From the sequence record NC_025447.1: a stretch of DNA of 64,000 bases; one strand, written 5' to 3'. The notes beneath the pieces were generated by a model. The model made no database searches, had not been told where the DNA came from, and saw only the letters and a list, made by a program, of their open reading frames with translations. The number at the start of each line of letters is the position of its first letter. Within the stretch, counting starts at the first letter, position 1. This document shows, piece by piece, positions 25,154 to 53,171 of the stretch. The translations under genes and the position numbers were made by a program. The DNA comes from Escherichia phage 121Q.

Positions 25154-25572
25154 AGTTCTTTAAAATTCGAATTGGTGTAAGTTCTGGTTTATCTCATTGG
25201 GTATTTTATGATTTACCTGATAGTTATACTATTGATGATGTAATTGATTTATATACCGAAGATCAACAATGGGTGTTAGATACCGAAACACATAGAATTG
25301 ATTGTCAAGAGATTAGTGAAGAAGATTACAAGCACGGAAAGCAAGCCATGAAGTATTTTGAAACAAATATCAAAATGCTGTCTGAAAACGTATTTCCTGT
25401 AAAAGAATGGGCAATTTTACTTGCTAATCCTAAAAAACCTGTTAGAATTGGTTATCCAAATTTTCATATGGTGTATCGTATGAATGATAAGCGAGAGCTT
25501 AACTATCAATACGATTACGATTCATCTAAGTTTGGAGTTCTTAAACAATTTTTAAAGGCTTATCCAGTATGA
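25150..25572 (+). CDS. hypothetical protein
   Basis: 140-aa ORF. Confidence 0.55.
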   Translation: MKFFKIRIGVSSGLSHWVFYDLPDSYTIDDVIDLYTEDQQWVLDTETHRIDCQEISEEDYKHGKQAMKYFETNIKMLSENVFPVKEWAILLANPKKPVRIGYPNFHMVYRMNDKRELNYQYDYDSSKFGVLKQFLKAYPV

Positions 25573-25904
25573 GTGAAGATAGTAAAGAGTATATTTTACG
25601 TTGTTCTTGTGGCGATAAAATGGAGCATTGCGTTCACATTGCACAATTTGACTTGACAGAGGAATATGGAGATGATAAACTTGGTCAATGTCTGATAAGT
25701 ATGCGTTTAAATCCTTTTTTAAAATGGTATAACCGTGTATGGGTTGCAGTAAAGTATGTTTTTGGTGTAAACGACTATCAATATGTAGAAGCAACAATTG
25801 ATGTTGACATTCTAAAAGAAGTTGTGTTACAATTAGAAGATACTAGAACTGATGAGGTTAAAAAAGAACAAAGAGAAAAACGTACTGATGTGAAGGTTTT
25901 ATGA
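25569..25904 (+). CDS. hypothetical Cys-containing protein
   Basis: 111-aa ORF with CSCGDKMEHC. Confidence 0.5.
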   Translation: MSEDSKEYILRCSCGDKMEHCVHIAQFDLTEEYGDDKLGQCLISMRLNPFLKWYNRVWVAVKYVFGVNDYQYVEATIDVDILKEVVLQLEDTRTDEVKKEQREKRTDVKVL

Positions 25905-26095
25905 GTACTGAACTTTATGAAAAAAAGTACTGTACAAATTGCTCAACTGAGTATACAATACAAGGTATGTTGATTTGTACAATATGTCAGTCAAAGAAAT
26001 CAGCAACTTTCATCGTTGATGATAGATTTGGTGATTTGAAACAGTTTAAAGCAAACCGCAATCTTCGTATTTTTAGCAATCTAAATAAGGAATAA
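25901..26095 (+). CDS. hypothetical zinc-ribbon-like small protein
   Basis: CTNC...CTIC four-Cys pattern. Confidence 0.5.
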   Translation: MSTELYEKKYCTNCSTEYTIQGMLICTICQSKKSATFIVDDRFGDLKQFKANRNLRIFSNLNKE

Positions 26096-26098
26096 TAT

Positions 26099-26527
26099 AT
26101 GAATATCGAACAAACTATCCGTGAACATTCTTTCTTCGCTCCAGAAACTGGTCGTGTTATTGAGAGCGTCAAAATCGAAGAACTAATGGTCAATGTTAAA
26201 TACAAAGAACCAAATGATGAGATTAGCAGTACTTTTTGTGCTCTACGTGCACCATTCCGTAATGAAAAAGCTAAGAAACCAGCATATGTTCTTGCCATTG
26301 CACTGGGTTGTGTTGTAAAACTTGCAGTTGATGAAAATCTTCTGAATATTAAAGTTGCACCAAGCAATGACGATGAAAACATTGATTTGAACTTTGATGG
26401 TTCTCTTGATGAAGATGTATTTTTCCAACAGTCACTTGTTTACGACTTCCGTACAGTGACACATTCTCACATCAAGTTCATTAATGAAATGGTTGAGATT
26501 GTTGCTGAATACGAAGAATCTCTCTAA
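26099..26527 (+). CDS. EE-x-FFQ-x-S motif family protein (member 1)
   Basis: C-proximal DEDVFFQQSLVYD. Confidence 0.6.
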   Translation: MNIEQTIREHSFFAPETGRVIESVKIEELMVNVKYKEPNDEISSTFCALRAPFRNEKAKKPAYVLAIALGCVVKLAVDENLLNIKVAPSNDDENIDLNFDGSLDEDVFFQQSLVYDFRTVTHSHIKFINEMVEIVAEYEESL

Positions 26528-40659: not shown

Positions 40660-40995
<336 letters not shown>

Positions 40996-40996
40996 A

Positions 40997-41179
40997 ATGA
41001 CACACGAAGAATGGATGTACAAACAGCATAAAGAACATGACTGCTTTGGGAATGGTATTCGTCAGGTACATTATGATATTCTCAAAGATATAAATTTATT
41101 CATAAAATATGTTTTGGATGAAAATAAACATTGGTTTATATATGAGATTGCATATAGAAACTCAAATAAACAAAAATAA
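40997..41179 (+). CDS. MTHEEW-family small protein
   Basis: MTHEEWMYKQ...HWFIYEIAYRN; paralog of 40477..40653. Confidence 0.5.
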   Translation: MTHEEWMYKQHKEHDCFGNGIRQVHYDILKDINLFIKYVLDENKHWFIYEIAYRNSNKQK

Positions 41180-41193
41180 ATAAGGAATATATT

Positions 41194-41412
41194 ATGGAAA
41201 CAACGTTATTTGAAGTTATTCAAGCATTAAAAACTGGTGATGACATTCAAGTATTGCTACATGGTTATCGTTTAAAAGGCACTGTGGTTTTAGTTAATGA
41301 CACAACGTTAGTTATTGCCGAAACAAATCCATATGATAGTAATCAAGTTGCTAATATCCATATTGATATTAAAAGCATTATTGGTGTAGGCGTAAATAAA
41401 AATCAAGAATAA
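41194..41412 (+). CDS. hypothetical small protein
   Basis: 72-aa ORF. Confidence 0.45.
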   Translation: METTLFEVIQALKTGDDIQVLLHGYRLKGTVVLVNDTTLVIAETNPYDSNQVANIHIDIKSIIGVGVNKNQE

Positions 41413-41490
41413 CAAATGTTTTTGAAAAAAACCAGAAAATGAATGATTTTTTTGGACAACTCAAAAATATATGATATAATAATTAGTACA

Positions 41491-41580
<90 letters not shown>

Positions 41581-41584
41581 ATAT

Positions 41585-41680
<96 letters not shown>

Positions 41681-41689
41681 CTAAAAACC

Positions 41690-41854
41690 ATGACGCATGA
41701 AGAATGGATGAATGATATTAATTTTAGATATTCGGGTATCGGTAGTTGGCGAAAATATCATTGGGAAATTATTTCAGACCCAGCAGAATACGATAAACTT
41801 ATAAACCATGAAGTATATCCGTGGTTCTTTATTGAAATAATGGTACGAATATGA
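41690..41854 (+). CDS. MTHEEW-family small protein
   Basis: MTHEEWMNDINFRYSGIGSW...; 54 aa. Confidence 0.5.
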   Translation: MTHEEWMNDINFRYSGIGSWRKYHWEIISDPAEYDKLINHEVYPWFFIEIMVRI

Positions 41855-42011
41855 CGCATGAAGAATGGATGAATGACATTAATTTTAGATATTCGGGTAT
41901 CGGTAAATGGCTAAAGTATCATTGGGAATTCATTTCAGAGCCACATATGTATGATAAACTTATCAACGATCCAGCATATGAAATGTACTTAATTGAACTA
42001 CTGGTACGAAT

Positions 42012-42015
<4 letters not shown>
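41851..42015 (+). CDS. MTHEEW-family small protein
   Basis: MTHEEWMNDINFRYSGIGKW...; near-duplicate of 41690 copy; ATGA overlap. Confidence 0.5.
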
Positions 42016-42177
<162 letters not shown>

Positions 42178-42185
42178 AAAAAAAG

Positions 42186-42595
<410 letters not shown>

Positions 42596-42599
<4 letters not shown>

Positions 42600-42630
42600 C
42601 TAAATAATTCAGTACTGAGGATATTAATAT
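42596..42630 (+). promoter_or_regulatory. degenerate copy of promoter cassette (copy 2)
   Basis: TTGACTAAATAATTCAGTACTGAGGATATTAATAT; -35 and spacer conserved, -10 degraded. Confidence 0.35.
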
Positions 42631-42656
42631 GTTTAAAGATGAACGTCCAGATTTGT

Positions 42657-42694
<38 letters not shown>

Positions 42695-42699
42695 GAATT

Positions 42700-43050
42700 C
42701 CACAATCAGACGTATATGGTGTAAGCTACGTCGATGCAATCCAGAACAAGATCTCTGGTACTCTAGGAAGTGGTGAATGTTAACCTAGACGGGTTTGATA
42801 ATTGGACGATAGGCAATTATTACTTGACTAGCAGGTTGAAACTAGAGGTGACAGTCCTTCACCAAACTGGAAAACCGGATGGACTTTTATTTAAAAGGGT
42901 AAGGCGTGGAAATATGTTTACAGAAGTTGCTTTTAGTAGCCTGTACGCCCCACGACAAGGTAGCCGAAAGGTAAGTTAAAACGGGTGGTTATAAAGCTGA
43001 ATTAACAGCGGCGTTTAAAAGCGTCACCATCCATTTTTTTAATTAAAGTT
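42700..43050 (+). ncRNA. candidate structured non-coding RNA downstream of early promoter
   Basis: About 350 nt between a consensus promoter and the next RBS with no convincing ORF, locally GC-richer, several hairpins including GGTGACAGTCCTTCACC and a GAAA-loop stem. Confidence 0.3.
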
Positions 43051-43056
43051 GGCGAT

Positions 43057-43809
<753 letters not shown>

Positions 43810-43826
43810 TTCACATGATATAGGGA

Positions 43827-44088
<262 letters not shown>

Positions 44089-44096
44089 GAATCTTC

Positions 44097-44498
44097 ATGA
44101 AAAAGAATGACTTGATCAAAATGCTCCAAGAGATTGACGGCAATCCAGAGATTGTTATTTGGAATGGCTATGTCGATGATTATATGAACATCGAAAAAGG
44201 CTTGACTAAAATCACACTAGTCAAAGAAACTGAACAGTTCCTTCTGAACGCATTAGAGCATGAATGGTGCGAACGTAACAAGACATTCGACATTCCAGAA
44301 GACCAACGAACTAAGATTGCAGAACGTGCTAAAGAACTTCATAAGAAGCGTGAATACGATTTCCAGAACCCATATGTTACTGAAGAAGAATTCAATCGCT
44401 GGTACGGAAAAAGAAAGTTGACAAAGTATGTTCTTTCACCTAAACTACGTGGTAAGACTTCTCTTGGTGTATTCAATGCATCTGACTTAGATTACTAA
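44097..44498 (+). CDS. hypothetical protein (paralog pair with 45138..45353)
   Basis: N-terminus MKKNDLIKMLQEIDGNPEIVIW resembles MKAKDLISILQKNPEADILIH. Confidence 0.55.
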   Translation: MKKNDLIKMLQEIDGNPEIVIWNGYVDDYMNIEKGLTKITLVKETEQFLLNALEHEWCERNKTFDIPEDQRTKIAERAKELHKKREYDFQNPYVTEEEFNRWYGKRKLTKYVLSPKLRGKTSLGVFNASDLDY

Positions 44499-44508
44499 GG
44501 AAAACAAA

Positions 44509-44829
44509 ATGATGTGGTATTCAAATGTACCGTGTGAACCTAAATATATTCAGATTTCACATAATGCACTGAAAGCGTTCTGTGATAATTGCAGTACTAA
44601 AGATTATCACTTCGAAGACTTCAGAACGTTGATTTATGACCATCACTGTCAGCCAGCAACCAAAGATGGTATGTTTGTAATTGAACAATTCTTTCATGGT
44701 AAGGTATTGCAAATTGTTGCTGATTATCTGAAAGCAATGGGATATATTATCAAAGATGATTATCTTGATTTAGAAGGTGAATGCATTGTTGATGGTTATG
44801 ATGGTGTACTGATGAATTGGACATGGTGA
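44509..44829 (+). CDS. hypothetical protein
   Basis: 106-aa ORF. Confidence 0.5.
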   Translation: MMWYSNVPCEPKYIQISHNALKAFCDNCSTKDYHFEDFRTLIYDHHCQPATKDGMFVIEQFFHGKVLQIVADYLKAMGYIIKDDYLDLEGECIVDGYDGVLMNWTW

Positions 44830-44833
44830 TGAA

Positions 44834-45136
44834 ATGATTGCAACAATGATGATTGTACTTATCCCAATAGTACTAGTAATTCTAGTGACTTCATATGGTG
44901 CAACCACAACTATTGAAGATCTAAAAACACATTACGCTATCGTCTTTAGTGAAGCACATGAAGACTTTGGTACAGTACTGACCGATAAGACTTATATTGC
45001 AACTAAATGTAAGTACTACCGATTCTGGGAACGTTCTGACAAATACCACTACAGAGATGAGAAAGGCGTGAATCAGTACTTAGACGTACTGGATGCATTC
45101 TTGAAACCTTACTATACAGTAACCGAGGTAAAATAA
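44834..45136 (+). CDS. hypothetical membrane-anchored protein
   Basis: N-terminal TM MIATMMIVLIPIVLVILV. Confidence 0.5.
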   Translation: MIATMMIVLIPIVLVILVTSYGATTTIEDLKTHYAIVFSEAHEDFGTVLTDKTYIATKCKYYRFWERSDKYHYRDEKGVNQYLDVLDAFLKPYYTVTEVK

Positions 45137-45137
45137 C

Positions 45138-45353
45138 GTGAAAGCTAAAGATTTGATTTCAATTTTACAGAAAAACCCAGAAGCAGATATTCTTATTCAT
45201 GCTTCGCCTTATGATGACTATGCGATTGGTAGTTGCGAAACTGCTCATTCATATCAAGCAGGGGACACCGCTGTTGAAGAGTCTGGTGAAGATTTTTCGG
45301 AATCATTTGATGAAGATGGAAAACTCTTAGTACCAGTCATCATTCTCTCATAA
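45138..45353 (+). CDS. hypothetical protein (paralog pair with 44097..44498)
   Basis: GTG start in track; N-terminal similarity to 44097 ORF. Confidence 0.45.
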   Translation: MKAKDLISILQKNPEADILIHASPYDDYAIGSCETAHSYQAGDTAVEESGEDFSESFDEDGKLLVPVIILS

Positions 45354-45360
45354 AAGAACG

Positions 45361-45543
<183 letters not shown>

Positions 45544-45562
45544 AGAGGTACTTCGAGTATGC

Positions 45563-45629
<67 letters not shown>

Positions 45630-45632
45630 TAA

Positions 45633-45661
45633 TTGACATAACTTTGAATGGAGTGTATTAT
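45633..45661 (+). promoter_or_regulatory. sigma70-type promoter
   Basis: TTGACA, 17-nt spacer, TATTAT. Confidence 0.5.
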
Positions 45662-45704
45662 GTTCCAAGAAGAAAACTGGGGTTTTTAACATAACGGGGA
45701 ATGT

Positions 45705-45837
<133 letters not shown>

Positions 45838-45838
45838 G

Positions 45839-45889
<51 letters not shown>

Positions 45890-45895
45890 TAATTA

Positions 45896-45968
45896 GCCGA
45901 CTTAGCTCAGTAGGTAGAGCGTTCCTCTTGTAAGGGAAATGTCACCAGTTCAATTCCGGTAGTCGGCA
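45896..45968 (+). tRNA. tRNA-Thr (anticodon UGU)
   Basis: Perfect acceptor GCCGACT/AGTCGGC, D-arm GCTCAGTAGGTAGAGC, anticodon loop CTTGTAA, T-loop TTCAATT; CCA not encoded. Confidence 0.65.
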
Positions 45969-45980
45969 CAAAATAAAGGT

Positions 45981-50129: not shown

Positions 50130-50471
50130 ATGAACTTAAGTTCAACAATTCAGTACTTGAGCAGTAACTTCGAGAAAATTATTTCTCGCGGTGGGATGAT
50201 TGTACACCCAGAAACAGAGGAAATGTACATCATTGGATTTGATAAAAATTCTTATGATCAAGTACTTGTAATTTCCAAGTTAGAAAGTTATAATGAAGTT
50301 GTTCAGTTTTGCTGTACCGAATTTGGTATCTATATTAAAGACGCTGAAACTAATACAATTTCGCATTATTTTTACCACACACTGATGGGTACTAAAGATT
50401 TCGGATTGAAGTTCAATGATTTAGTACAATGTCACTATATGTTTAAAACCTTCCCAGCTAGTGGGCACTAA
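50130..50471 (+). CDS. hypothetical protein
   Basis: 113-aa ORF. Confidence 0.5.
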   Translation: MNLSSTIQYLSSNFEKIISRGGMIVHPETEEMYIIGFDKNSYDQVLVISKLESYNEVVQFCCTEFGIYIKDAETNTISHYFYHTLMGTKDFGLKFNDLVQCHYMFKTFPASGH

Positions 50472-50484
50472 GGAGTATATCAAT

Positions 50485-51273
50485 ATGAGCAACATTTTCT
50501 TCAAAACTATTTCTTTCAAAAAAGCATCTTACTCCTACGCCTACGTTGATGGTAAAGTGCTTAATATTGTACTGGATGGTGTTGATGTACCAGTTGAATT
50601 TAAAACACATGAAGAAGCAGTTGAAGGTGCTAAAGAATTGAATTCAATTCTTAATGGTGAAGTAAGTCAAAAACAAAATGTAAAATCTGATTTAGATGTA
50701 CTTTTGGAAAAAATCAAAACTGGTGAAGTATTAGAAATTTTAGACAACTGTAATGAAAAACTTCGTAATGTAGTTAATAATGTTCGTGACCAGATTCAAG
50801 AAAAAGCACTAGAGCAAGCATTCAAACATGTATCCAAGAATGCTGAATCTCGTATTGATGGTATGGTTAAAAATCTTGATGATGTACTATCCCATCTCTT
50901 TACTAAAGAATACGAACAAGAAGTTGAAGAAGAACCAGTAAAAGAAACCAAAAAAGAAAAACGTAGCTTTGGTTCAGGTGATGATGTGTTTGGCTTTACG
51001 AATGTCCGAACAAGTGCAGATGAACCAAAAGAAATTAGTGAGATGCTCATTGGTGACATGACAACTAAGCAGCTTCGTAATGAAATTGACAAGTTTGTAA
51101 CTAGTTGTATCAAATCAGAACGTGCACAAAGTATGTTTAAAAGCATTAGTGAGAACTTTGGTCCAGAAGCAACTGAGCAGGCACTAACTGCATTTAAAGA
51201 ATTGATTTATAATGTAGCCATTAGCAATCCAGATAAAACACTTGAAGAAGTTCTACGTGACAATTTCAAATAA
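50485..51273 (+). CDS. hypothetical protein
   Basis: ORF; start placed at ATG 50485 after AAGGAG RBS (track 50461). Confidence 0.55.
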   Translation: MSNIFFKTISFKKASYSYAYVDGKVLNIVLDGVDVPVEFKTHEEAVEGAKELNSILNGEVSQKQNVKSDLDVLLEKIKTGEVLEILDNCNEKLRNVVNNVRDQIQEKALEQAFKHVSKNAESRIDGMVKNLDDVLSHLFTKEYEQEVEEEPVKETKKEKRSFGSGDDVFGFTNVRTSADEPKEISEMLIGDMTTKQLRNEIDKFVTSCIKSERAQSMFKSISENFGPEATEQALTAFKELIYNVAISNPDKTLEEVLRDNFK

Positions 51274-51278
51274 TTAGA

Positions 51279-51304
51279 TAAAATTAAAGCCACTACAATG
51301 TAGT
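51279..51304. terminator. bidirectional intrinsic terminator between convergent genes
   Basis: GCCACTACAATGTAGTGGC hairpin flanked by A-run upstream and T7 run downstream. Confidence 0.6.
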
Positions 51305-51315
51305 GGCTTTTTTTA

Positions 51316-52470
51316 TTATGCGTTGTAACCAACTATTACGACTGAGCAGTCAAGCGGTTCTACTACTTTTAAAATCACATTATCATCTTCATCCACTTGT
51401 ATTTCGCTATGAACTACATGATTGTCTGAAGAATATAATTGAACTTGTGGTAGTGCTTTACCATGTTCAGTTACTGGAACTGAGATAGAGTACATAGAGT
51501 CTTCACCGAGAACCCACTCACTTAAAGTATATTCTTTATGGAAAGGAGTAGTATGCAGTGTTTTTCCGATTATACTCAAAGAAACAGGTAAATTATCAGT
51601 TTGATACACAGTAATATTACCTTCTGCGTCTACAGAAAGATCTACACCAACTTGATATAAGTCACCACTGTATGCTTGAAGTGCTAAGTACTGTCCACGA
51701 TCATGAACATCAAATGGAACAACCGCAGAAAATACACCTTCCGAAACAGGTTCAAATTGGGATAGAAGAACTGATGTAACAAAATCAATATCCTCACCAC
51801 TTTCAAGAACATCAAATTCCACCACTTTAGTGTTATAATATGGAGAAGTGAGCGTAGCAGTACCTTTCCCTGATTGTGTGATAACATCAACTGGAATTGT
51901 AAATGCATCATTAACAAATTGGGTAGTAAAGTATTCTGTCCCGTCTGGTAATACGATTGTTATTACCATACCGTTAGTATCAATTTCTGAACCAGTGTTG
52001 AATAATTTACCACTAATTGAGTCATTACCAACAAATACTGGTGAAATGAGAATATTATCTATATCACGATCTATAATACCACATTCAGGTGTATACATAT
52101 GATACAAGGTTTGTGAACTACCTAAAATTGTTTTATGTAGCATGAATTTATATACAAATCCAGTATCAGTTTCTTGTGGCTCTTCGGAATATCCACGAAC
52201 AAAGAAACAATTTTTATTAATTTCACTTAATAGTTGGTCATTAGTTTTATTGTAATTTAATAGATAACCTTTATTATCTTTAGTTGTTATTTGTACTTTA
52301 CGATATATTATATTAGTTCTGGGATCAACTAAATCATATAATCTATGGCTTCTTTGGCGATAGATTCTAATATTTTTTAGTCTAGTTCCATCGTTGAGGA
52401 TTGCACCATCAACAACATAACCACATTCACCAAACTTATAGCGTCCAGCCGCAGCAATTGACCTTGACAT
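51316..52470 (-). CDS. hypothetical protein (only long minus-strand gene; beta-rich composition, possibly structural or surface protein)
   Basis: 384-aa ORF on minus strand with GGAGGG RBS 5-6 nt upstream of ATG; convergent with upstream + gene across a bidirectional terminator. Confidence 0.65.
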   Translation of the reverse strand: MSRSIAAAGRYKFGECGYVVDGAILNDGTRLKNIRIYRQRSHRLYDLVDPRTNIIYRKVQITTKDNKGYLLNYNKTNDQLLSEINKNCFFVRGYSEEPQETDTGFVYKFMLHKTILGSSQTLYHMYTPECGIIDRDIDNILISPVFVGNDSISGKLFNTGSEIDTNGMVITIVLPDGTEYFTTQFVNDAFTIPVDVITQSGKGTATLTSPYYNTKVVEFDVLESGEDIDFVTSVLLSQFEPVSEGVFSAVVPFDVHDRGQYLALQAYSGDLYQVGVDLSVDAEGNITVYQTDNLPVSLSIIGKTLHTTPFHKEYTLSEWVLGEDSMYSISVPVTEHGKALPQVQLYSSDNHVVHSEIQVDEDDNVILKVVEPLDCSVVIVGYNA

Positions 52471-52586
52471 TTATCCCTCCATTGGTATAATTATTATAAC
52501 GTATTTATTATGCATATCCAAAAAATGAGCTTGACTGGTGTATGATTTGGTGTTATCATGTAGTGAATGAATAATGAGGTGTTTTT

Positions 52587-53171
52587 ATGAATGTTATTGA
52601 TAATAGATTAGTACTGAAAAATGGAAAAATGACTGTTAAGTTATATAAAGATGAAGCAGATTCTTTCATGGCAAAAGCGATTGAAAAATCAGAACGATAT
52701 AAACTTTTGGCTCCAGCCAGTAAATCGCCATATGGTTTTAATCATGCACATAGTCATTTTGTTGGTATGGTATGTGAGCACGCATCTTTAGTACTTTTTA
52801 ATGAAATTGAAAACAATACTGGTATTAAACTTAATATCGATCCAGCATTCCAAAATGAAGCACGTGACGGTGAATGTGATATTAAGGTAAACAACCTTCG
52901 TATTGAAGTAAAAGGTATCAAGTATAAATCATGGACTGACTTTGGACCATGTGTTAGTACTCGACAGTTAAAAAATATCCAGAAAAAAGCTGACGTAATA
53001 CTATGGGTATTGTATAATGAGAAAAAACAAGAGTTCACGTTTGAGGGATTCAACTATGTAAAAGATATTAGTTCTATCCCAGTTATCCTCACTGGTGTAC
53101 CAGGGCGACCAATGATTGAAAATCACCCAGTACTCGGTATTATGAAACCACTACAGGAGTTACCATTGTGA
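52587..53171 (+). CDS. hypothetical protein, possible PD-(D/E)xK nuclease fold
   Basis: GECDIKV ... RIEVKG resembles D...(D/E)xK catalytic arrangement; tentative. Confidence 0.5.
   Translation: MNVIDNRLVLKNGKMTVKLYKDEADSFMAKAIEKSERYKLLAPASKSPYGFNHAHSHFVGMVCEHASLVLFNEIENNTGIKLNIDPAFQNEARDGECDIKVNNLRIEVKGIKYKSWTDFGPCVSTRQLKNIQKKADVILWVLYNEKKQEFTFEGFNYVKDISSIPVILTGVPGRPMIENHPVLGIMKPLQELPL

What the first reader, a model, noticed from the sequence alone, without database searches (positions are those of the whole stretch)
51279..52470. Isolated minus-strand gene flanked by a bidirectional terminator
In more than 60 kb of + strand genes, the only substantial minus-strand gene is a 384-aa, beta-rich protein with a strong GGAGGG RBS, converging on the upstream + gene across a perfect hairpin with T and A runs on both sides. 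Upstream on the minus strand there are TATAAT- and TAATAAATA-like sequences, so timing is unclear. The strand switch and composition suggest an inserted module or a structural or surface protein gene.
Basis: seen in the sequence. Interest (0 to 1): 0.4.

Follow-up and report, generated by a model that had tools for sequence, protein, structure and literature searches.

The report
Late virion surface protein, reverse-strand gene
The lone reverse-strand gene encodes an already catalogued particle protein of a giant E. coli phage, made of a conserved N-terminal module plus three antibody-like domains; it probably points backwards because it is a late gene with its own promoter and terminator inside a block of early genes, so it is real but largely ordinary.

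Summary
Window 51316-52470 (-) is a 384-aa all-beta ORF with a GGAGGG ribosome-binding site. It converges on the + gene across a perfect 11-bp hairpin (51286-51310) and is the only non-nested minus-strand ORF of 132 aa or more in 64 kb.

The window is an Asteriusvirus, a PBECO4/121Q/phAPEC6-type 350-kb jumbo coliphage. The protein equals PBECO4 gp368 ('virion structural protein') and is 99.5% identical to phAPEC6 gp077. Published mass spectrometry found gp077 in purified virions (10 peptides, 37.8% coverage), and also found the CBB_496 and GAP32_475 orthologues.

The reverse orientation, a T4-late-like motif (ATAAATAC, 52501-52508) and the two-way terminator are conserved in five lineages. Composition is native, so this is not an insertion. 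Genome-wide, ATAAATA precedes 14 of 40 mapped virion genes against 17 of 538 others (p=6e-10).

The protein is a conserved ~130-aa N-terminal module plus three Ig-like beta-sandwich domains. The same module heads other virion proteins with variable Ig arrays at a second reverse-strand locus (gp347).

The best reading is a late-expressed, surface-exposed accessory decoration or adhesin protein anchored by its N-module. Its position on the particle is unknown. Interest is low to moderate.

The parts
51316..52470 (-). CDS, 384 aa (42.88 kDa). Equals PBECO4 gp368, phAPEC6 gp077 and slurp01 PSLUR01_00063. A virion-associated protein.
   Evidence: ORF. 100% or 99.5% identical proteins in 19 Asteriusvirus records. 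phrog_10468 at E 7.6e-184. Mass-spectrometry detection in phAPEC6, CBB and GAP32. Calculated mass of 42.88 kDa equals the published value.
52081..52470 (-). N-terminal module (residues 1-130): a conserved extreme N-terminal arm (1-18) plus a compact, mostly beta domain. Proposed virion-anchoring module.
   Evidence: It is the most conserved part of the protein (pairwise identity 0.62 and 0.55 against 0.36-0.42 for the rest). It is found at the very N-terminus of about 70 representative proteins of 124-1859 aa, which carry different Ig arrays behind it. It equals phrog_33171. AF2 on a 33-sequence alignment gives pLDDT 85, pTM 0.79, with residues 1-17 disordered. No relative in the PDB by profile search.
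51793..52065 (-). Beta-sandwich domain D2 (residues 136-226), prealbumin / bacterial-Ig-like.
51553..51792 (-). Beta-sandwich domain D3 (residues 227-306).
   Evidence: AF2. D3 and D4 recur together in about 290-aa proteins and in a 298-aa ORF in the tail-fibre gene cluster of the same genome.
51319..51552 (-). Beta-sandwich domain D4 (residues 307-384), the distal and most variable domain.
   Evidence: AF2. Lowest conservation of any part (0.36 overall; 0.27 against distant orthologues). Weak Ig_NUP210 hit.
52475..52480 (-). Shine-Dalgarno GGAGGG, 4 nt upstream of the ATG.
   Evidence: Sequence. GGAG(G/T)G is retained in fEgEco12, CBB, Yen9-04 and XaC1.
52501..52508 (-). T4-late-like promoter motif ATAAATAC. 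Predicted transcription start near 52496, giving a 5' UTR of about 26 nt.
   Evidence: It is the only ATAAATAC in the 64 kb on either strand, against 7.1 expected. (A/G)TAAATAC is conserved upstream of the orthologues in five lineages. The CBB orthologue is listed as late promoter Porf_496. Genome-wide, the motif is associated with virion genes (OR 16.5, p 6e-10). The start site and the timing are inferred.
52493..52498 (-). TATAAT-like hexamer on the minus strand, probably not the functional element.
   Evidence: A 10/12 sigma-70-like match. It is not conserved: TACAAT in Yen9-04 and absent in XaC1. The scan found no more sigma-70-like sites than shuffled sequence does (15 against 14.6).
51286..51310 (.). 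Two-way intrinsic terminator hairpin between the convergent genes.
   Evidence: A hairpin in the same position with different stem sequences occurs in fEgEco12, CBB, Yen9-04 and XaC1. The CBB authors list Torf495 and Torf496 (complement) on the same hairpin. G17 annotates a terminator there.
50461..51273 (+). Convergent neighbour (annotated start 50485 in G17 and phAPEC6), equal to phAPEC6 gp078c. Also virion-associated; an acidic, helix-rich protein.
   Evidence: phrog_14991. Mass spectrometry: 4 peptides, 21.4% coverage. Homologous to CBB_494 (E 2e-7), which was detected by mass spectrometry in CBB and Rak2.
52464..52491 (+). Perfect sigma-70 consensus promoter (TTGACA, 16 nt, TGgTATAAT) reading away from the gene towards 52587. 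Its -35 box overlaps the ATG of the minus-strand gene.
   Evidence: 12/12 match with an extended -10 TG. Conserved in fEgEco12. Function is inferred.
52587..53171 (+). Divergent neighbour, 194 aa, phrog_16175. Called 'putative endonuclease' in fEgEco12. Conserved partner of the locus.
   Evidence: Its homologues flank the orthologue in CBB (CBB_497), Yen9-04 (g483) and XaC1.

Best explanation
This is a native, late-expressed component of the phage particle.

Shown: the protein is physically present in purified virions of this phage species and of two other genera. The gene, its reverse orientation, an upstream (A/G)TAAATAC motif and a 3' hairpin terminator are conserved across at least five lineages of Rak2-like jumbo phages.

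Inferred mechanism of expression: the gene sits inside a long block of small early or middle genes that host sigma-70 polymerase transcribes on the other strand. It is switched on late from its own T4-type late promoter (ATAAATAC; predicted start near 52496). It is translated from a strong GGAGGG site. The two-way hairpin at 51286-51310 ends its transcript and also stops the converging + strand transcript, so the two do not read into each other. The perfect sigma-70 promoter for the divergent neighbour overlaps the late promoter back-to-back, so early and late polymerase occupancy may be mutually exclusive.

Inferred function: the conserved N-terminal module (residues 1-130, with a conserved arm that is flexible in the monomer) docks the protein onto the capsid or tail lattice. 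The three Ig-like beta-sandwich domains project outwards as a short arm, roughly 10 nm long, that makes weak contacts with cell-surface or environmental glycans. That would make it an accessory decoration or adhesin protein working like T4 Hoc or T5 pb10, though it is not related to either.
For: Identity: 99.8% DNA identity to slurp01. The protein is 100% identical in PBECO4, G17, Sharanji and other isolates.

Virion presence: phAPEC6 gp077, 10 peptides, 37.8% coverage. CBB_496, 4 peptides, 17.5%. GAP32_475 positive by mass spectrometry.

Conserved reverse-strand synteny.

Late promoter: the motif is conserved while the TATAAT is not. The site is unique in the window and the motif is depleted overall (13 against 44 expected). 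It lies upstream of the major capsid protein, scaffold, protease, sheath, baseplate wedge and other virion genes at -24 to -65, against -38 here. The association is OR 16.5, p 6e-10, and 28 of 52 sites lie in the 8% of the genome that is non-coding. It is published as Porf_496 in CBB, and the CBB_390-546 region is predicted to be early.

Terminator.

Anchor-plus-display logic: the N-module heads about 70 proteins with different Ig arrays. Conservation falls from the N- to the C-terminus. The paralogues gp347 (the N-module alone, 75.2% mass-spectrometry coverage) and CBB_112 / Rak2 ORF496 (N-module plus Big_2) are also virion proteins.
Against: Timing has never been measured for any of these phages; no RNA-seq was found.

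The paralogue gp347 and the neighbour gp078c are virion proteins without an ATAAATA upstream, so the motif is not the only route to virion-gene expression.

The phAPEC6 virion proteome also lists enzymes (thymidylate synthase, topoisomerase, RecA-like protein), so mass-spectrometry presence alone does not prove a structural role.

The minus-strand side of the terminator has an interrupted T tract.

The position on the particle, the copy number and the anchoring role of the N-module are all inferred.

D3 and D4 also occur in a protein encoded in the tail-fibre cluster, so a tail or fibre location is as possible as a capsid one.
Confidence: 0.68

Rival explanations
1. It is a component of the host-recognition apparatus, either a short fibre or the tip or adaptor of the 'hairy' fibres seen on phAPEC6 and CBB. 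In that case it would matter for adsorption or host range rather than being a dispensable decoration.
For: Its two distal domains, D3 and D4, recur in a 298-aa ORF that lies between gp253 and the 1841-aa 'tail fiber protein' gene in the same genome (E 6.6e-16 and 1.1e-14) and in about 290-aa proteins elsewhere. The distal domain is the most variable. phAPEC6 and CBB carry unassigned fibres on tail and capsid. The fHe-Yen9-04 annotators called the orthologue a 'possible surface protein responsible for cell interaction'.
Against: No coiled-coil, beta-helix, collagen-like or other fibre-forming segment is predicted. Three Ig domains are far too short for the ~119 nm hairs of CBB. The protein is 100% identical among isolates from different E. 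coli and Salmonella hosts, which is unlike a host-range determinant. The gene lies far from the tail-fibre cluster.
Confidence: 0.2
2. It is a recently acquired mobile module, a moron or horizontally transferred cassette, which inserted in the opposite orientation with its own promoter and terminator.
For: It has its own promoter, ribosome-binding site and terminator, lies on the opposite strand, and is modular.
Against: The same gene is in the same place and orientation in at least five lineages, down to 31% identity. GC, GC3 and codon usage lie within the range of neighbouring genes. No flanking direct repeats and no integrase or homing endonuclease signature were seen. The promoter is the phage's own late type.
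Confidence: 0.03
3. It is a packaged internal or ejected protein, or a co-purifying non-structural protein, and is not exposed on the surface.
For: The phAPEC6 particle has an inner body, and its proteome contains several non-structural enzymes. Mass spectrometry cannot tell inside from outside.
Against: Tandem Ig-like adhesin-type domains are typical of exposed phage proteins (Fraser et al. 2006, cited). Detection in three independent proteomes with good coverage. Family members carry Big_2 and invasin arrays.
Confidence: 0.08

Closest known systems
PBECO4 gp368 / phAPEC6 gp077 / CBB_496 / GAP32_475 (PHROG 10468, 'virion structural protein')
   Same: It is the same protein: 99.5-100% identical in Asteriusvirus, and a full-length orthologue at 31-43% identity elsewhere. 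The locus, orientation, late motif and terminator are the same.
   Different: Nothing differs. The family has no assigned position or function in the particle.
T5 pb10 and T4 Hoc (capsid decoration proteins carrying Ig-like domains)
   Same: The design logic is the same: one lattice-binding domain plus outward-facing Ig-like domains. The size is similar to Hoc (376 aa). As in pb10, the proposed binding domain is N-terminal. Both are made late and are virion-associated.
CBB_112 / GAP32 'Ig domain-containing protein' / Rak2 ORF496 / phAPEC6 gp347 (second N-module locus)
   Same: They share the ~120-aa N-terminal module (E 3e-19 within the genome). All were detected in virions by mass spectrometry. 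They are also lone reverse-strand genes.
   Different: What follows the module differs: nothing in gp347, one Big_2 domain in CBB_112, and 5-7 Big_2 or other Ig domains in metagenomic relatives. gp347 has no ATAAATA upstream. The label 'major tail protein' on these comes only from Big_2 similarity.
T4 late genes (gp55-dependent TATAAATA promoters)
   Same: An A/T-rich -10-type motif with no -35 box lies upstream of structural genes. The late gene is on the strand opposite to the surrounding early genes.
   Different: The motif here is TAATAAATAC, which matches the 7-nt core ATAAATA but not the full T4 octamer. The CBB authors found a gp55-like sigma but no gp33 or gp45 homologues. No transcript mapping exists.

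Membership tests
PHROG 10468 / PBECO4 gp368-type virion protein | Full-length sequence homology | tested here: met
   E 7.6e-184 over residues 1-383 against profile 1-384. 59 phage records contain it at over 80% coverage.
PHROG 10468 / PBECO4 gp368-type virion protein | Protein present in purified virions | tested here: met
The mapping of the window protein to gp077 was checked by locus and by mass.
T4-type late gene | Late-promoter motif ((T)ATAAATA) at a suitable distance upstream, with no -35 box required | tested here: met
   ATAAATAC at -38 to -31 from the ATG. Conserved in five lineages. The same motif and spacing occur at the capsid, sheath and baseplate genes.
T4-type late gene | The genome encodes a gp55-like late sigma factor | not tested
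   Reported for CBB (CBB_244). A phage sigma factor is mentioned for phAPEC6. It was not searched for in this window.
T4-type late gene | Transcript appears late and depends on replication and the late sigma factor | not testable with these tools
   No transcriptome for any Rak2-like enterobacterial phage was found.
Two-way intrinsic terminator | G+C-containing stem-loop followed by a U tract on both strands | tested here: met
   An 11-bp perfect stem with 5 G-C pairs. The + strand has 7 T. The - strand has TTTAATTTTAT, which is weaker. Conserved in the orthologous loci.
Two-way intrinsic terminator | Termination in vivo in both directions | not testable with these tools
   This needs 3'-end mapping.
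Hoc / pb10-type Ig-bearing capsid decoration proteins | Ig-like domains | tested here: met
Hoc / pb10-type Ig-bearing capsid decoration proteins | Homology to Hoc or pb10 | tested here: not met
   hhalign probability 0.1% (Hoc) and 0.4% (pb10). It is therefore not filed as a member; the relation is a functional analogy only.
Hoc / pb10-type Ig-bearing capsid decoration proteins | Binds the centre of capsid hexamers and is dispensable | not testable with these tools
   The phAPEC6 map has an unassigned protein at hexamer centres, but nothing links it to this gene.
Inserted mobile module / moron | Patchy distribution, foreign composition, or mobility genes or repeats at the borders | tested here: not met
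   Conserved synteny. Native composition. No inverted repeat was detected in the promoter-side flank (52440-52620). In the 3' flank (51200-51400) the only inverted repeats are the terminator hairpin and a low-complexity A/T palindrome at 51262-51285; neither borders the gene on both sides.
Tail fibre / receptor-binding protein | Fibrous trimerisation segments, a location in the tail-fibre cluster, and host-linked variability | tested here: inconclusive
   It shares D3 and D4 with an ORF in the fibre cluster. However, it has no fibre-type fold and is 100% identical across isolates from different hosts.

The most novel reading that the evidence does not exclude
The ~120-aa N-terminal module may be a previously undescribed virion-docking domain of Rak2-like jumbo phages. 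It would define two conserved reverse-strand 'display' loci, the gp077 type and the gp347 / CBB_112 type, at which different Ig-domain arrays are swapped onto the same anchor. On this reading gp347 (the bare module, and the best-covered protein in the phAPEC6 proteome) and gp077 account for some of the unassigned decoration or fibre-anchor densities in the 121Q and phAPEC6 cryo-EM maps.
Probability: 0.3. Interest if true: 0.45.

Novelty: already known. Interest (0 to 1): 0.25.

Why it matters
For genome annotation, the case shows that a lone strand-switched gene in a jumbo phage need not be foreign DNA. Here it marks a late structural gene placed inside an early transcription block, insulated by its own late promoter and a two-way terminator. 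That arrangement is conserved across genera.

The practical gain is modest. The analysis gives a domain map for a 'hypothetical' virion protein. It identifies a shared N-terminal module that ties together three virion protein types: gp077, gp347, and the CBB_112 / Rak2 ORF496 group. It also yields concrete candidates for fitting into the still-unassigned surface densities of 121Q and phAPEC6 particles.

If the N-module proves to be a portable docking domain, it could be used to display foreign domains on these very large capsids, as is done with Hoc and Soc on T4.

Tried and rejected
- Pfam on the protein gave only a sub-threshold Ig_NUP210 hit. Across the family there were only weak CarboxypepD_reg, Shr-like, SpaA_4 and Big_6 signals.
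- PDB sequence searches with the single protein and with the N-module profile found nothing meaningful. The best hit, BUD31 at E 0.36, is chance.
The good N-module model could therefore not be searched.
- A paralogue was sought in the window and none was found.
- Mapping the phAPEC6 proteome onto window ORFs by mass alone was ambiguous. It was replaced by mass plus gene order on a whole genome. 22 of the 62 proteins could not be mapped and were left out.
- The sigma-70-like TATAAT upstream of the gene was rejected as the main promoter. It is not conserved, and such matches are no more frequent than in shuffled sequence.
- The 'major tail protein' and 'head and packaging' labels on relatives were rejected as evidence of location, because they derive from Big_2 similarity and from category propagation.
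- Literature searches for cryo-EM assignments or transcriptomes of Asteriusvirus or Rak2-like phages found nothing beyond the phAPEC6 paper.
Full report
**1. The observation**

The window contains an ATG-initiated ORF of 384 aa at 51316..52470 on the minus strand. A GGAGGG lies 4 nt upstream of the start codon.

Listing all ORFs of 100 aa or more shows 81 on the + strand and eight on the minus strand. Six of the other seven minus ORFs (101-119 aa) are nested in, or overlap, longer + ORFs. The seventh, a 131-aa ORF at 25987-26382, overlaps a + ORF and spans an intergenic gap; it was left unresolved.

Between this gene's stop codon and that of the converging + gene (50461..51273) lies a perfect inverted repeat at 51286-51310, with an 11-bp stem and a 3-nt loop. 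It folds at -18.2 kcal/mol on the + strand and -16.6 on the - strand, z -5.5 and -6.5, and none of 200 shuffles folds as well. The T tract is clean on the + strand. On the minus strand it is interrupted (TTTAATTTTAT).

The one correction concerns composition, which is not unusual. GC z is +0.4, GC3 z is -1.3 and codon-usage distance z is -0.25 relative to the + strand genes. The local dip in GC skew is what a gene on the other strand produces.

**2. What genome this is, and what is already known about the gene**

The region is 99.8% identical to Escherichia phage slurp01 and 98.9-99.5% identical to phAPEC6, G17, Sharanji and PBECO4, all of genus Asteriusvirus. These are roughly 350-kb Rak2-like jumbo myoviruses.

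The protein is 100% identical in 16 records and 99.5% identical to phAPEC6 gp077. RefSeq calls the PBECO4 copy (gp368) a 'virion structural protein'. It is a full-length member of PHROG 10468.

The basis of that label is published virion mass spectrometry:
- phAPEC6 gp077: 42.88 kDa, 10 unique peptides, 37.8% coverage (PMC7247149 Table 1).
- CBB_496: 4 peptides, 17.5% coverage (PMC5259590).
- GAP32_475: scored positive in the CBB authors' comparison table (supplement S5).

The mass I calculate for the ORF, 42.88 kDa, equals the published value. The convergent neighbour (phAPEC6 gp078c, homologous to CBB_494) is also virion-associated.

**3. It is not an insertion**

Orthologues at 31-80% identity occur in 59 records, all of them Rak2-like jumbo phages of Escherichia, Salmonella, Erwinia, Yersinia, Pectobacterium, Cronobacter, Serratia, Klebsiella aerogenes and Xanthomonas.

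In fEgEco12, CBB, fHe-Yen9-04 and XaC1 the gene is again a lone gene on the strand opposite to all its neighbours. It diverges from a homologue of the 194-aa gene at 52587-53171.

The 3' hairpin is conserved in position, but with different stem sequences: GCCACTAC in Asteriusvirus and fEgEco12, GGCACTC in CBB and Yen9-04, and GGAGCC in XaC1. T runs are present on both strands in four of the five lineages. In XaC1 the run on the neighbour's strand is weak. The CBB authors list terminators Torf495 and Torf496 (complement) on the same hairpin.

Together with the native composition, this rules out a recent acquisition.

**4. Timing and transcription (inferred)**

Aligning the upstream regions by eye shows that (A/G)TAAATAC is retained in all five lineages, 25-38 nt before the start codon. 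The TATAAT hexamer is not retained: it is TACAAT in Yen9-04 and absent in XaC1.

The CBB paper reports ATAAATA as a T4-late-like motif upstream of structural genes. It lists Porf_496 (ATAAATACTTTATA) among 35 such sites, and it predicts that CBB_390-546 is the early region driven by RpoD-like promoters.

In the window, ATAAATAC occurs exactly once on either strand, against 7.1 expected, and that one site is here. ATAAATA as a whole is depleted, with 13 sites against 44 expected.

I tested the motif genome-wide on a 99%-identical complete genome (OR844650.1). Forty of the 62 phAPEC6 virion proteins were mapped by mass and gene order. The result:
- ATAAATA lies within 100 nt upstream of 14 of 40 virion genes against 17 of 538 other ORFs (odds ratio 16.5, Fisher p = 6e-10).
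- The 14 include the major capsid protein (-52), scaffold, prohead protease, sheath (-57), baseplate wedge, gp245 and gp253. The target gene has it at -38.
- 28 of the 52 sites in the genome lie in the 8% that is non-coding.

By analogy with T4, where TATAAATA sits at about -13 to -6, the transcript would start near 52496, giving a 26-nt leader that carries the GGAGGG.

On the other strand a perfect sigma-70 consensus with an extended -10 (TTGACA, 16 nt, TGgTATAAT; 52464-52491) points towards the divergent gene. Its -35 box overlaps the ATG of the minus-strand gene. The two promoters are thus back-to-back and overlapping, which would make early and late polymerase binding mutually exclusive. 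This is an inference.

No transcriptome exists for these phages.

**5. The protein**

AlphaFold2 on 17 orthologues (pLDDT 81.5) gives an N-terminal region (1-135) of mixed confidence and three beta-sandwich domains with pLDDT above 90: about 138-225, 230-305 and 310-384.

The exhaustive profile search was the most informative. Only about ten representatives are full-length. However, profile positions 1-122 occur at the extreme N-terminus of about 70 representatives of 124 to 1859 aa. What follows the module in those proteins is a variable array of Ig-like domains: Big_2 x5-7, Invasin_D3 plus Big_1, or HYDIN-type Ig.

A 33-sequence alignment of the module shows a very conserved start (MGKPIAG..PFG..G..V..A, then L.I.KQRS..DL.D). 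It folds confidently (pLDDT 85, pTM 0.79) as a compact, mostly beta domain whose first 17 residues are disordered in the monomer. It has no relative in the PDB by profile search.

Within the orthologue family, conservation falls from the N-terminus to the C-terminus: 0.62 for the arm, 0.55 for the module, then 0.42, 0.40 and 0.36 for D2, D3 and D4.

**6. Paralogues**

The same genome has two partial paralogues.

(a) A 125-aa protein consists of the N-module alone. It is phAPEC6 gp347, which has 8 peptides and 75.2% coverage, the highest in that proteome. It too is a lone reverse-strand gene.

Its counterparts in other genera are CBB_112, the GAP32 'Ig domain-containing protein' and Rak2 ORF496. 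All three were positive by mass spectrometry and carry the N-module plus Big_2. Metagenomic relatives of 641-653 aa sit at the same locus, flanked by PhoH, NUDIX, SIR2, dCMP deaminase, ClpP and ligase genes, again as lone reverse-strand genes.

(b) A 298-aa ORF carries D3 plus D4 behind a different N-terminus. It lies in the tail-fibre cluster next to the 1841-aa fibre gene.

Every N-module protein with proteomic data is therefore a virion protein. The variable part is always Ig-like, and the distal two domains have been exchanged with a fibre-cluster gene.

**7. Best explanation and rivals**

The best-supported reading is a late, surface-exposed accessory protein. Its N-module docks it onto the particle and its Ig-like domains project outwards, working like Hoc of T4 or pb10 of T5.

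It is not a member of either family. hhalign probability is 0.1% to Hoc and 0.4% to pb10.

Where it sits is unknown. The phAPEC6 and 121Q maps have several unassigned surface densities: a hexagonal decoration network, a protein at hexamer centres, tail-ring decorations and fibres.

The rivals are:
- A role in host recognition or the fibres. D3 and D4 sharing supports this. The absence of a fibre fold, and 100% identity across isolates from different hosts, argue against it.
- An internal or co-purifying protein.
- A mobile insertion, which is effectively refuted.

**8. Novelty and score**

The gene, its virion association, the late-type promoter and the terminators of its CBB orthologue are all already in the literature or in databases, so the finding as stated is already known.

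What I did not find described is the following:
- The shared N-terminal module.
- The two conserved reverse-strand display loci.
- The genome-wide statistics for the late motif in an Asteriusvirus.

These are incremental. Interest is 0.25.

Noticed in passing
window 52464-52491 (+): A perfect 12/12 sigma-70 consensus with an extended -10 (TTGACA, 16 nt, TGgTATAAT). Its -35 hexamer overlaps the start codon of the minus-strand gene, and it lies back-to-back with the late-type motif at 52501-52508. A second, weaker promoter-like site is at 52531-52559. This may be an early/late promoter-exclusion arrangement.
   Followed up: partly
whole window; also OR844650.1 (L008-L015): The heptamer ATAAATA is strongly under-represented: 13 against 44 expected in the window, and only 52 in 704 kb of both strands of the genome. 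More than half of the sites lie in the 8% that is non-coding. This is consistent with selection against stray late promoters.
   Followed up: yes
OR844650.1 235932-236309 (L012), equal to phAPEC6 gp347; L017 8001-9962; L020 8001-10320: A second lone reverse-strand locus encodes N-module proteins of very different length: 125 aa in Asteriusvirus, 218 aa in CBB, and 641-653 aa with 5 Big_2 domains in metagenomic relatives. gp347 has the highest peptide coverage of the phAPEC6 virion proteome but no ATAAATA upstream.
   Followed up: partly
OR844650.1 166582-167478 (L011): A 298-aa ORF in the tail-fibre gene cluster shares the last two beta-sandwich domains (D3 and D4) of the target protein behind an unrelated, fibre-like N-terminus. 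It was not detected in the phAPEC6 proteome. The neighbouring 654-aa ORF (174070-176034) has a marginal D4-like C-terminus (E 0.0025).
   Followed up: partly
window 52423-52425 and 52081-52083 (residues C16 and C130): Two cysteines are invariant in all 17 orthologues. Both lie in the two low-confidence segments that flank the N-module. Cys16 is not conserved in the wider N-module family. They may form a disulfide or a metal clamp that staples the N-terminal arm.
   Followed up: no
window 40682-45969 (+): A cluster of six tRNA genes: Gly-TCC, Ser-TGA, Ser-ACT, Met-CAT, Asn-GTT and Thr-TGT. The Ser tRNA with anticodon ACT is unusual and could be a mis-call or a modified-wobble tRNA.
   Followed up: no
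window 25987-26382 (-): A 131-aa minus-strand ORF spans the gap between + ORFs 25569-25904 and 26099-26527 and overlaps the latter. It was not resolved whether this is a real small reverse-strand gene or an antisense shadow.
   Followed up: no
window 50461-51273 (+): The convergent neighbour (phAPEC6 gp078c, CBB_494, Rak2 ORF233) is an acidic, helix-rich protein also found in virions of three phages. Yet it lies on the 'early' strand with no late-type motif upstream, so how it is expressed late enough to be packaged is unexplained.
   Followed up: partly
OR844650.1 327418-345698 (L014): A run of 16 consecutive same-strand ORFs, 14 of them 358-439 aa plus two shorter ones (245 and 111 aa). This is the region where the ~41-kDa 'DNA condensation protein' genes map (two mapped there by mass); several proteins of that family are in the phAPEC6 virion proteome. 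It is a large tandem paralogue array outside the window.
   Followed up: no
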